Notes under the pieces: model-generated | Databases searched by the model: none | Seen by the model: the letters and a program-made list of their open reading frames with translations, nothing else | Told to the model about the DNA's origin: nothing | Shown here: one piece after another, positions 6,095-7,131 of the stretch | Position numbering within the stretch: the first letter of the stretch is position 1 | Layout of the letters: every line of letters starts with the position of its first letter | UHGV virus genome: UHGV-0172325 | Reading direction: 5' to 3' (one strand) | From: a virus | DNA: 12,537 nucleotides | Position numbers and translations under genes: made by a program

Positions 6095-6157
6095 GGGTAA
6101 CTCCTTATATTTGATTGCATAACGAAAACGCCTCGAGTGAAGCGTTATTGGTATGCA

Positions 6158-6184
6158 TATAAAAAAGCCCTCACACTGGAGGGC
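6158..6184 (-). terminator. Intrinsic terminator, tL1-like (GCCCUC stem, 6-nt loop, U-run on the leftward transcript)
   Basis: Plus strand reads AAAAAA-GCCCTC-ACACTG-GAGGGC; on the minus-strand RNA the hairpin is followed by UUUUUUAUAU. Lies upstream of the cIII-like gene. Confidence 0.6.
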
Positions 6185-6320
6185 AAAGAAGATTTCCAAT
6201 AATCAGAACAAGTCGGCTCCTGTTTAGTTAAGAGCGACATTGCTCCGTGTATTCACTCGTTGGAATGAATACACAGTGCAGTGTTTATTCTGTTATTTAT
6301 GCCAAAAATAAAGGCCACCA

Positions 6321-6572
6321 TCAGGCAGCCTTGTTGTAAATGTTGCAGGTATCAAGTAAGTAATTAGATGGAGCGCCATAAATTATGAATTCATCGTTTG
6401 TCGGGTCCATCTCCATCTCTTGGCCTATTGCCATTCTTGCGTCAGTGTCATCAGCGGCGAAGCATAAAACAGCCCACGCACCCATTGTTTTAAAAAGAAC
6501 TGCAATTGGCTGTGGTTTTACTGAATTTGCGTTAGCGCGAAAATCACAAATCGCACTTTCATGAAATTCCAT
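6321..6572 (-). CDS. Hypothetical protein (83 aa)
   Basis: ORF with a good SD (GAGGTG, 4-nt spacer). Located between N-like and cIII-like, the lambda ea10/ral slot. An imperfect hairpin plus T-run overlaps its 3' end (about 6303-6335). Confidence 0.5.
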   Translation of the reverse strand: MEFHESAICDFRANANSVKPQPIAVLFKTMGAWAVLCFAADDTDARMAIGQEMEMDPTNDEFIIYGAPSNYLLDTCNIYNKAA

Positions 6573-6630
6573 ATATCACCTCAAATAAGTGGTTTGCTGC
6601 CTAATTTCATTTTCTGGCGACCAACACAAG

Positions 6631-6903
6631 TCATCTTGCTGTCAGTTGTTTGGATTTACGGTAGCCTGCCGCGTAAAGAGCTACATTTGGAAGACAAGTT
6701 GAGCCTTCATATTTTCTGGTCAACGTTGTCAGTGTTATTACTTCTGCTCTCATTGCTGGTTTGCGTTTGCATTGTAAGACCACTCGTGATGGGGTTGGCC
6801 TGTGTAGTTTGTCGGAGCTAATCGCCTCCTGACTTTGCAGGTTTGCGCGACGAGCTCTACGGCGAGAAGCTGCGGTGCCTTTAAATTCTGTTTTTCTGGA
6901 CAT
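6631..6903 (-). CDS. N-like transcription antiterminator (90 aa)
   Basis: Start at the internal Met (6903) with GGAGG 5 nt upstream. The N-terminal arginine-rich motif GTAASRRRARRANL resembles the lambda/P22 N motif. The C-terminus LPNVALYAAGYRKSKQLTAR resembles P22 gp24 as recalled. Lies just downstream of pL and nutL. Confidence 0.6.
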   Translation of the reverse strand: MSRKTEFKGTAASRRRARRANLQSQEAISSDKLHRPTPSRVVLQCKRKPAMRAEVITLTTLTRKYEGSTCLPNVALYAAGYRKSKQLTAR

Positions 6904-7001
6904 AGATTCCTCCCGAATAAACTTTGGCGATGCAATCTCGAAGCTCCTCCTGAGACGGTTGCTTCGGCATTGCATCCCACAGCTTATGTGGTTGGGTGAT
7001 C

Positions 7002-7047
7002 TGGCTTTTCAGCCACGTAGTCGAGAGTCGACGTTGTTTAAAGAGCC
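7002..7047 (-). promoter_or_regulatory. nutL candidate: boxA (GGCTCTTTAAACAACG) and boxB hairpin (UGGCU-GAAA-AGCCA)
   Basis: On the minus strand, a boxA-like GCTCTTTA is followed about 22 nt later by a 5-bp stem with a GAAA loop. The whole ~50-nt segment is closely similar to the nutR candidate, with compensatory stem changes. Confidence 0.55.
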
Positions 7048-7102
7048 TGCCAGTCTGTTCCATTTGGCTTCCAGCGTCCTGCTGATGGTTAAATAGTACG
7101 AT

Positions 7103-7131
7103 ATGTACTTCACTTGGTCAATACAATTTGT
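7103..7131 (-). promoter_or_regulatory. pL candidate: -35 TTGACC, 17-bp spacer, -10 TACTAT (minus strand)
   Basis: Near-consensus sigma-70 hexamers with a 17-bp spacer, oriented toward nutL and N. The spacer contains the 11-mer GAAGTACATAT also found in the cI-cro operator region. Confidence 0.55.

What the first reader, a model, noticed from the sequence alone, without database searches (positions are those of the whole stretch)
7002..7131. pL with near-consensus hexamers and a nutL-containing leader of about 190 nt
On the minus strand, TTGACC (7131..7126), a 17-bp spacer and TACTAT (7108..7103) form a strong sigma-70 promoter aimed at N. The nutL boxA/boxB lie about 50-95 nt downstream of the predicted start, and the N-like gene begins at 6903 with a GGAGG SD. 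Two ORF-track entries overlap this leader (6881..7063 and 6750..6980) and are probably not genes.
Basis: seen in the sequence. Interest (0 to 1): 0.35.

Follow-up and report, generated by a model that had tools for sequence, protein, structure and literature searches.

The report
Prophage pL promoter and nutL leader

Summary
The hexamers alone (9/12) are no better than chance. The support is context. Two 17-bp sites matching this prophage's own OR operators overlap the -10 and the -35, at the same positions as lambda OL1 and OL2. The transcript would start at A7086 with ATCAGCAGGACGC, the sequence found at the matching position downstream of the lambda, H-19B and HK97 pL hexamers. In 78 related viral contigs, at least five unrelated operator sets sit upstream of this same leader, each with hexamers in the same register. 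The 183-nt leader carries boxA (7047..7034), a spacer hairpin (7032..7020), boxB with a GAAA loop (7015..7002), and a long hairpin (6987..6917) whose base reaches the N Shine-Dalgarno. N (90 aa, Pfam N_peptide) starts at 6903. The 60-codon leader ORF, which PGAP annotates, is intact in only 37 of 78 relatives. VT2-Sakai (97-98% identical) already has pL, three operators, nutL and N annotated. Already known; low interest.

The parts
7310..7333 (-). Intrinsic terminator ending the leftward cI-gp49-gp48 transcription unit, upstream of OL/pL
   Evidence: Terminator scan: 9-bp stem with 6 GC pairs, reported on the + strand. On the minus strand the same palindromic stem is followed by TTTTCTTTG. The equivalent site in VT2-Sakai is annotated 'putative rho independent terminator for pRM transcript'.
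7152..7168 (.). OL3, putative weak operator (AAATACAAAGCGTTGTA), -82..-66
   Evidence: Annotated as a putative operator in VT2-Sakai. The OR-derived PWM gives only 9.6 bits, below the mean shuffle maximum of 10.9, so it is not significant on its own.
7119..7135 (.). OL2 operator (TAGAACAAATTGTATTG), overlaps the -35, -49..-33
   Evidence: The PWM built only from the three OR sites scores it 12.8 bits, the second-best non-OR hit. Its position relative to +1 is the same as lambda OL2.
7116..7121 (-). pL -35 hexamer TTGACC (5/6)
   Evidence: Relatives of the same immunity type have TTGACC, TTGATC, TTGACT, TTGATA or TTGACA here.
7094..7110 (.). OL1 operator (AAGTACATATCGTACTA), overlaps the spacer and the -10, -24..-8
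   Evidence: OR-derived PWM 15.9 bits, above the maximum of 200 shuffles (15.4) and the best non-OR hit in the window. Lambda OL1 lies at -25..-9.
7093..7098 (-). pL -10 hexamer TACTAT (4/6)
   Evidence: Invariant in all relatives of this immunity type.
7074..7086 (-). Inferred transcription start (A7086) and conserved initial transcribed sequence ATCAGCAGGACGC; mosaic joint between the immunity module and the N module
   Evidence: The same 13-mer lies 6 nt downstream of the pL -10 hexamer in lambda (at 35582), H-19B and HK97, the position it has here; 933W has GTCAGCAGGACGC. In alignment A1, sequences upstream of it are unrelated between immunity types while everything downstream is conserved. 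That lambda pL starts at 35582 is my own knowledge.
7034..7047 (-). nutL boxA GGCTCTTTAAACAA (+40..+53)
   Evidence: Exact GCTCTTTAA core, the only exact copy in the window. Inside the annotated nutL of VT2-Sakai.
7020..7032 (-). Spacer hairpin GTCGA-CTC-TCGAC between boxA and boxB
   Evidence: Predicted in the single-sequence and consensus folds. The stem is invariant while the loop varies in sequence and length (CTC, ACTC, ACAC, AATC, GCAC). nutR has GGAC/GUCC and H-19B nutL has GAUUC/GAAUC at the same place. PMC3526286 reports two hairpins in H-19B nutR.
7002..7015 (-). nutL boxB UGGCU-GAAA-AGCCA (+72..+85): 5-bp stem, U-A closing pair, GNRA tetraloop
   Evidence: Folds at -6.3 kcal/mol. 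It is in the RNAalifold consensus and invariant in 28 distinct leaders. nutR has UCGCU-GAAA-AGCGA, a G-C to C-G compensatory change.
6917..6987 (-). Long leader hairpin between nutL and the N ribosome-binding site; outer pairs (6995/6994 with 6910/6909, 6991/6990 with 6914/6913) reach the SD. Candidate RNase III / translational-control structure as in the lambda N leader
   Evidence: Energy -39.3 kcal/mol, z -5.19, 0 of 200 shuffles fold as well. Consensus fold: no pair broken in more than 1 of 28 sequences, and substitutions fall in loops and bulges or give G-U. The lambda leader folds into a comparable long stem at the same place. No compensatory double changes were seen.
6909..6914 (-). Shine-Dalgarno GGGAGG, 5 nt before the N ATG
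   Evidence: invariant in relatives.
6631..6903 (-). N antiterminator gene, 90 aa, arginine-rich motif SRRRARRANLQSQ
   Evidence: Pfam PF25694 N_peptide, E 3.4e-32, residues 1-90. 41% identical to H-19B N, with matching N- and C-termini. The arginine-rich motif aligns with that of lambda N.
9663..9708 (+). nutR, the partner site downstream of cro
   Evidence: Second and only other match of the composite nut pattern.
9334..9408 (.). OR1-OR3 operators between cI and cro, used as the reference for the operator PWM
6311..6332 (-). First of three intrinsic-terminator-like hairpins on the leftward strand downstream of N (also 6167..6184 and 6127..6146): candidate targets of N antitermination
   Evidence: Terminator scan; their role is inferred.

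Best explanation
This is the OL/pL-nutL-N control region of a lambdoid E. coli prophage with VT2-Sakai-type immunity. In the lysogen the CI repressor (HTH plus S24 self-cleaving domain, 8666..9319) would bind OL1 and OL2, which cover the -10 and -35 of pL, and block RNA polymerase. After repressor inactivation, sigma-70 polymerase would start at about A7086 and transcribe leftward. The 183-nt leader RNA presents boxA, a spacer hairpin and boxB. N, translated from 6903, would bind the boxB GAAA hairpin through its lambda-like arginine-rich motif. Together with host Nus factors at boxA and the spacer, it would make the polymerase resistant to the terminators downstream of N. A long hairpin between nutL and the N ribosome-binding site probably limits N translation or serves as an RNase III site, as in lambda. 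Shown here: the sequence elements, their match to OR, their conservation, register and fold. Inferred by homology: repressor binding, the start point, N/Nus action and the role of the hairpin.
For: (1) The hexamers with a 17-nt spacer are on the correct strand upstream of N.
(2) A PWM from the OR sites alone finds its best non-OR hits at OL1 (15.9 bits, above all 200 shuffles) and OL2 (12.8 bits). These lie at -24..-8 and -49..-33, against -25..-9 and -49..-33 for lambda OL1 and OL2.
(3) ATCAGCAGGACGC at 7086 is the same 13-mer that lies 6 nt downstream of the pL -10 hexamer in lambda, H-19B and HK97.
(4) In 78 IMG/VR loci with N at least 98% identical, at least five unrelated operator sets precede the same leader, each with -35/17/-10 in the same register within 1 nt. 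The mosaic joint lies at +1.
(5) nutL and nutR are the only two matches of the composite nut pattern, and each lies downstream of its promoter. The boxB stems differ by a compensatory G-C/C-G change.
(6) N has a Pfam N_peptide hit at 3e-32 and a lambda-like arginine-rich motif.
(7) VT2-Sakai (AP000422) is 97.9% identical over OL-pL-nutL-N and 98.8% over cI-OR-cro. Its annotation carries three operators, pL, nutL and N at the equivalent positions.
(8) The leader hairpin folds with z -5.2, and substitutions in relatives avoid or preserve its pairs.
Against: No experimental data for this sequence were found; the VT2-Sakai features are labelled 'putative'. The hexamers alone are not above chance, and the -10 matches only 4/6. 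OL3 is not significant by PWM. The relatives are too similar for compensatory double changes in the leader hairpin (0 of 50 pairs). The thermodynamic MFE of nutL pairs boxA with the 3' half of boxB (-14.1 kcal/mol) rather than forming the boxB hairpin (-12.0 kcal/mol). The start point is inferred, not mapped.
Confidence: 0.9

Rival explanations
1. The 'leader' is partly coding: the 60-codon ORF 7063..6881, annotated by PGAP as hypothetical protein WP_000438343.1, is a real small gene or leader peptide. Its translation across nutL and the hairpin would couple to or modulate N expression.
For: It is annotated in the 100%-identical E. coli chromosome NZ_OY754364 and in several phage records. It has an ATG start with a weak GGAAG 4 nt upstream. 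It ends 23 nt inside N, so translation could melt the hairpin that covers the N SD.
Against: Of 78 loci with the same N and nutL, only 37 keep the ATG and 60 codons. Forty have ACG at that position and a stop after 26 codons, and one has the ATG but a 1-nt loop insertion that cuts the ORF to 26 codons. There is no Pfam match. From established lambda work (my own knowledge), ribosomes crossing a nut site interfere with N use.
Confidence: 0.06
2. N starts at the upstream in-frame ATG 6975 (114 aa), as annotated in the Stx1-converting phage AP005153, so the untranslated leader is only about 111 nt.
For: The ORF is open from 6975, and AP005153 annotates the 345-nt form.
Against: There is no SD before 6975, and that ATG lies inside the conserved hairpin stem. 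The 90-aa form aligns from residue 1 with H-19B N (MSRKTEFKG / MTRRTQFKG) and with the Pfam model. GGGAGG sits 5 nt before 6903. Two relatives carry a 1-nt deletion between the two ATGs that breaks the long form but leaves N intact.
Confidence: 0.04
3. The hexamer pair is a chance match and leftward early transcription starts elsewhere, for example further upstream in the AT-rich 7130..7300 segment.
For: Hexamer matches of this quality are commoner in shuffled sequence than in the window. No transcription start data are available.
Against: The operators overlap exactly these hexamers, as in lambda. Five unrelated immunity types keep a promoter in this register next to the conserved +1 sequence. 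The upstream segment is preceded by a terminator and holds no better minus-strand match.
Confidence: 0.03

Closest known systems
OL/pL-nutL-N region of Enterobacteria phage VT2-Sakai (AP000422) and Stx1/Stx2 converting phages (AP005153/AP005154)
   Same: 97.9% nucleotide identity over terminator-OL-pL-nutL-N and 98.8% over cI-OR-cro-cII. The operator, hexamer, boxA and boxB sequences are identical. The same elements are annotated there as putative operators, the major leftward promoter, nutL and N.
   Different: The genes between cI and the terminator differ: HK97 gp48/gp49 homologues here, H0093/H0092 in Sakai. The window's spacer-hairpin loop is CTC, whereas many other relatives have a 4-nt loop. 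The replication genes are P22/HK97-like rather than HK022-like.
Phage lambda OL/pL, nutL and N leader
   Same: The architecture matches: OL1 over the -10 and OL2 over the -35 at the same distances from +1, and a 17-nt spacer. The 13-mer that follows the pL hexamers is identical. The order boxA, then boxB with a U-A closing pair and a GNRA-type loop, is the same. The N arginine-rich motifs are similar. A long hairpin precedes the N SD in both, followed by CCAAAG.
   Different: The operator sequences are unrelated. boxB has a true 4-nt GAAA loop rather than lambda's 5-nt GAAGA/GAAAA. A hairpin occupies the boxA-boxB spacer. N is 90 aa, lacks the Trp18 equivalent (Glu in the alignment) and has a P22/H-19B-type C-terminus. 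The leader is 183 nt, against 222 nt in lambda by the same count (35582 down to 35361).
H-19B / 933W / HK97 N-nut system (Neely & Friedman 2000, Mol Microbiol 38:1074, cited in PMC3526286; paper not held)
   Same: Both have a spacer hairpin followed by CUACG before boxB. nutR is almost identical apart from boxA and one loop base. The N-terminal and C-terminal parts of N are shared, as is the 13-mer that follows the pL hexamers.
   Different: H-19B N is 127 aa and its boxB loop is GACAA, the P22 type; here N is 90 aa, 41% identical, and the loop is GAAA. H-19B nutL has no recognisable boxA, whereas here boxA has the full GCTCTTTAA core. The reduced Nus requirement reported for H-19B therefore cannot be assumed here.

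Membership tests
Lambdoid OL/pL early leftward promoter-operator | Sigma-70 -35/-10 pair with 17 +/- 1 nt spacing, on the strand of N and upstream of it | tested here: met
   TTGACC, 17 nt, TACTAT at 7121..7093 on the minus strand.
Lambdoid OL/pL early leftward promoter-operator | Promoter overlapped by operators of the same sequence family as OR | tested here: met
   The PWM from OR alone gives OL1 15.9 bits (above all shuffles) and OL2 12.8 bits; OL3 is weak at 9.6 bits.
Lambdoid OL/pL early leftward promoter-operator | Repressor gene of the cI type (HTH plus S24) nearby, with a divergent cro and OR | tested here: met
   Pfam HTH_3 plus Peptidase_S24 for 8666..9367; cro has HTH_3; cII matches Phage_CII.
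Lambdoid OL/pL early leftward promoter-operator | Mapped transcription start and repressor-dependent activity | not testable with these tools
   The only support is inference from the 13-mer shared with lambda at the matching position and from the preserved promoter register.
N-utilisation (nut) site | boxA matching CGCTCTTTAA upstream of boxB on the transcript | tested here: met
   GGCTCTTTAAACAA at 7047..7034; it contains the only exact GCTCTTTAA in the window.
N-utilisation (nut) site | boxB hairpin with a GNRA-like loop and a cognate N carrying an arginine-rich motif | tested here: met
   UGGCU-GAAA-AGCCA folds at -6.3 kcal/mol and is in the consensus fold. N matches Pfam N_peptide at 3e-32, and its arginine-rich motif aligns with lambda's.
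N-utilisation (nut) site | A second copy (nutR) downstream of cro on the rightward transcript | tested here: met
   9663..9708 on the + strand; exactly 2 matches against 0 expected.
N-utilisation (nut) site | N- and Nus-dependent read-through of downstream terminators | not testable with these tools
   Terminator-like hairpins lie downstream of N, but function was not tested.
H-19B-type nut/N | Hairpin in the boxA-boxB spacer | tested here: met
   GTCGA/TCGAC in nutL, GGAC/GTCC in nutR and GATTC/GAATC in H-19B nutL.
H-19B-type nut/N | boxB loop GACAA with the 127-aa N protein | tested here: not met
   The loop is GAAA and N is 90 aa, 41% identical. It is a related but distinct N/boxB allele, the VT2-Sakai type.
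Lambda-type N-leader RNase III / translational control hairpin | Long, stable hairpin between nutL and the N SD | tested here: met
   z -5.19; pairs kept in 28 leaders; lambda has a comparable stem.
Lambda-type N-leader RNase III / translational control hairpin | RNase III cleavage and an effect on N translation | not testable with these tools
   Analogy only.

The most novel reading that the evidence does not exclude
The VT2-Sakai-type N/nut pair may be a functionally distinct fourth N-boxB specificity class. It combines a lambda-like arginine-rich motif that lacks the stacking Trp with a true GAAA tetraloop boxB. Its NUT RNA can switch between the two-hairpin form and a more stable form in which boxA pairs with the loop and 3' arm of boxB, which would make N and Nus loading kinetically controlled. 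The first base of boxA covaries with the boxB stem between nutL and nutR.
Probability: 0.1. Interest if true: 0.4.

Novelty: already known. Interest (0 to 1): 0.1.

Why it matters
It matters little beyond correct annotation. It fixes the coordinates of pL, OL1-3, nutL and the N start for this prophage. It shows that the PGAP-annotated 60-aa 'hypothetical protein' over nutL is probably not a gene, and that the 114-aa form of N is unlikely. It also illustrates that the mosaic joint between the immunity and N modules lies at the inferred pL transcription start. Because the same N/nut module drives early gene expression in many Stx phages, the element is relevant to models of Shiga-toxin phage induction, but nothing here is unexpected.

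Tried and rejected
- Rfam at gathering thresholds over the whole window gave no match.
- A PDB sequence search with N gave no hit even at E = 10.
- The IHF consensus WATCAANNNNTTR has no hit in 7130..7320 and is not enriched in the window, so I make no claim of an IHF site upstream of pL.
- The genome-contig scan with N returned only 4 loci and added little.
- Neely & Friedman 2000 is not held. Literature searches for 933W/Sakai nut sites and for tetraloop boxB found nothing specific.
- MAFFT did not align the spacer hairpins of nutL and nutR structurally, so I compared them by individual folding instead of formal pair counting.
- Three-way covariation between boxA and boxB as evidence for an alternative structure is weakened: 3 of 28 distinct leaders have U instead of G at the first boxA base with no compensating change.
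- The idea that the lambda/21-like C-terminal peptide after the N stop is a -1 frameshift extension is unlikely. There is no slippery heptamer, and one relative (L009) with the same N C-terminus lacks it.

Full report
**What is in the sequence**

Read on the minus strand, the window has TTGACC at 7121..7116, a 17-nt spacer (AAGTGAAGTACATATCG) and TACTAT at 7098..7093. Its promoter coordinates and predicted start (about 7096) are therefore exactly 10 too high. Its other coordinates are correct:
- boxA GGCTCTTTAAACAA at 7047..7034
- boxB TGGCTGAAAAGCCA at 7015..7002
- GGGAGG at 6914..6909
- N ATG at 6903

The hexamers match consensus at 5/6 and 4/6. The simple scan finds 8 sites of this quality in the window against 18.6 expected in shuffles. 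The hexamers alone therefore prove nothing; the case for a promoter rests on context.

**Genomic context**

The window is a lambdoid E. coli prophage. A 2.1-kb stretch (6600..8700) around the finding is 100% identical to the E. coli F404 chromosome NZ_OY754364. The gene order is:
- N: 6903..6631, Pfam N_peptide, E 3e-32
- two HK97 gp48/gp49-like genes
- cI (HTH_3 plus Peptidase_S24)
- cro
- cII
- P22-type replication genes

The block terminator-OL-pL-nutL-N is 97.9% identical to phage VT2-Sakai, and the block cI-OR-cro-cII is 98.8% identical. The VT2-Sakai record AP000422 annotates, at the equivalent positions, a terminator for the pRM transcript, three putative operators, the 'putative major leftward promoter', 'putative N-utilization leftward' and N. 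The feature is thus already described in near-identical phages.

**Operators**

I built a weight matrix from the three OR sites only (9334-9350, 9360-9376, 9392-9408) and scanned the whole window.
- The best non-OR hit is 7094..7110 (AAGTACATATCGTACTA, 15.9 bits), above the maximum of 200 shuffles (15.4).
- The next is 7119..7135 (TAGAACAAATTGTATTG, 12.8 bits).
- The first covers the spacer and the -10; the second covers the -35.
- Relative to A7086 they lie at -24..-8 and -49..-33. Lambda OL1 and OL2 lie at -25..-9 and -49..-33.
- The third annotated site (7152..7168) scores only 9.6 bits and is not significant on its own.

**Start point and modular structure**

Six nucleotides after TACTAT the sequence reads ATCAGCAGGACGC. 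The same 13-mer lies 6 nt downstream of the pL -10 hexamer in lambda (at 35582, the known pL start by my own knowledge), H-19B and HK97. 933W has GTCAGCAGGACGC.

I fetched 80 IMG/VR loci whose N is at least 98% identical; 78 of them could be analysed. Everything from this 13-mer downstream is conserved. Upstream of it at least five unrelated operator/promoter sets occur: the window type, an H-19B type, a 933W type, a lambda-like type and one more. Each has a -35/17-nt/-10 arrangement in the same register, within 1 nt. The joint between the immunity module and the N module therefore lies at the inferred +1. This is strong comparative support for pL and for a start at about 7086, giving a 183-nt leader.

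**nutL**

The composite pattern boxA core, 15-35 nt, CTACGT-S-GCTGAAAAGC-S-AG occurs exactly twice. One copy is at 7046..7001 on the minus strand (nutL); the other is at 9663..9708 on the plus strand, just after cro (nutR). None is expected by chance.

*boxB.* It is a 5-bp stem with a U-A closing pair and a 4-nt GAAA loop. nutL and nutR differ by a compensatory G-C/C-G change in the stem.

*Spacer hairpin.* Between boxA and boxB lies a hairpin (GTCGA-CTC-TCGAC). In 28 distinct leaders its stem is invariant while its loop varies in sequence and length. nutR has GGAC/GTCC and H-19B nutL has GATTC/GAATC at the same position. A two-hairpin nutR is reported for H-19B in PMC3526286.

*Relation to the H-19B type.* The N/boxB pair here is not the H-19B/933W/HK97 allele. 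Those have a 127-aa N and a GACAA loop, and the window's N is only 41% identical to them. The window's arginine-rich motif (SRRRARRANLQSQ) aligns with lambda's (TRRRERRAEKQAQ). PMC12027372 summarises that lambda N recognises a GNRA fold with a U-A closing pair through its arginine patch. I therefore infer lambda-like recognition.

**Rest of the leader**

A long hairpin spans 6987..6917 (-39.3 kcal/mol, z -5.19, 0 of 200 shuffles fold as well). Its outer pairs join CC..CC at 6995..6990 to the GG..GG of the N Shine-Dalgarno. Across the 28 leaders no pair is broken in more than one sequence, and substitutions fall in loops and bulges or give G-U pairs. There are no double compensatory changes, because the sequences are too similar. 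The lambda leader folds into a comparable long stem at the same place, followed by the same CCAAAG motif before the SD. In lambda this stem is the RNase III site that modulates N translation (my own knowledge). The same role here is an analogy only.

**The overlapping ORFs**

*ORF 7063..6881 (60 codons).* It is annotated by PGAP as WP_000438343.1. Among 78 loci with the same N and nutL:
- 37 keep the ATG and all 60 codons
- 40 have ACG at that position and a stop after 26 codons
- 1 has the ATG but a loop insertion that truncates the ORF to 26 codons

It has no Pfam match. It is probably not a gene, though weak translation in this subclade is not excluded.

*ORF 6980..6750.* It starts with GTG inside the hairpin, has no SD, overlaps N out of frame, has no Pfam match, and is truncated in two relatives by a 1-nt loop deletion that leaves N intact.

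*In-frame ATG at 6975.* Some records use it for a 114-aa N. It has no SD, lies in the hairpin stem, and is broken by the same deletion. The 90-aa form aligns from its first residue with H-19B N.

**Mechanism, rivals and verdict**

The best explanation (confidence about 0.9) is the standard lambdoid circuit:
1. CI at OL1 and OL2 occludes pL.
2. After SOS-induced CI cleavage, transcription starts at about 7086.
3. N binds boxB on the nascent RNA.
4. With Nus factors, N renders RNA polymerase resistant to the terminator-like hairpins at 6332..6311, 6184..6167 and 6146..6127.

The rivals are a coding leader, a longer N, and a chance promoter; each is rated at or below 0.06.

The most unusual observation is that the computed MFE of both nut sites pairs boxA with the loop and 3' arm of boxB. 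The energies are -14.1 against -12.0 kcal/mol for nutL and -16.8 against -11.7 kcal/mol for nutR. The first boxA base covaries with the boxB stem. However, 3 of 28 leaders break this without compensation, and the title of the Neely & Friedman 2000 paper on H-19B already names 'alternative NUT RNA structures' (reference list).

Overall the finding is an already known, already annotated element. Its interest is low.

Noticed in passing
window 6582..6635 (minus strand): Immediately after the N stop codon, in the -1 frame, the sequence reads M-TCVGRQKMKLGSKPLI*. This matches the C-terminal 17 aa of lambda N (ITCSGRQKIKGKSIPLI*). The same remnant follows N in H-19B, HK97, 933W and an E. albertii prophage, but not in locus L009. 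It is probably a fossil of a lambda/21-type N C-terminus cut off by a frameshift. A paper title cited in PMC3526286 says the last 14 aa of lambda N are dispensable.
   Followed up: partly
window 7002..7047 and 9660..9710: In both nutL and nutR the predicted MFE pairs boxA with the loop and 3' arm of boxB around the spacer hairpin, instead of forming boxB. This form is 2-5 kcal/mol more stable than the two-hairpin form. The first boxA base (G in nutL, C in nutR) covaries with the boxB stem pair, but 3 of 28 related leaders break the pairing.
   Followed up: partly
window 6881..7063 (minus strand): RefSeq/PGAP annotates this ORF over nutL as hypothetical protein WP_000438343.1, and names N itself only 'hypothetical protein' in NZ_OY754364. 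The ORF is intact in only 37 of 78 related loci. This is probably an over-annotation.
   Followed up: yes
window 6542..6558 and 7266..7282: Two further matches to the OR-derived operator matrix: AAGTGCGATTTGTGATT (12.1 bits), at the start of ORF 6572..6321, and CATAACCAATTGTATTT (10.0 bits). The second lies in a segment between the terminator and OL3 that is also conserved in HK97, 933W and H-19B, which have other immunities, so it is unlikely to be a specific operator.
   Followed up: no
window 7336..8240 (minus strand): The cargo between cI and the terminator upstream of pL consists of homologues of HK97 gp48 (216 aa) and gp49 (88 aa), with no Pfam match. VT2-Sakai carries different genes at this position, which corresponds to the rexAB slot of lambda.
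   Followed up: partly
loci L010-L089 (IMG/VR), 36 nt upstream of the conserved ATCAGCAGGACGC: The same N/nutL leader is joined to at least five unrelated operator/promoter sets, with the recombination joint at the inferred transcription start. It is a clear example of lambdoid module exchange at a short conserved linker.
   Followed up: yes
window 8666..9367: The cI start is ambiguous between annotations: ATG 9319 (217 aa, AP000422), ATG 9361 (231 aa, PGAP and AP005153) and TTG 9367 (the longest ORF). The two longer forms would overlap OR3 and OR2; 9319 has AAGGA upstream and leaves the operators intergenic.
   Followed up: partly
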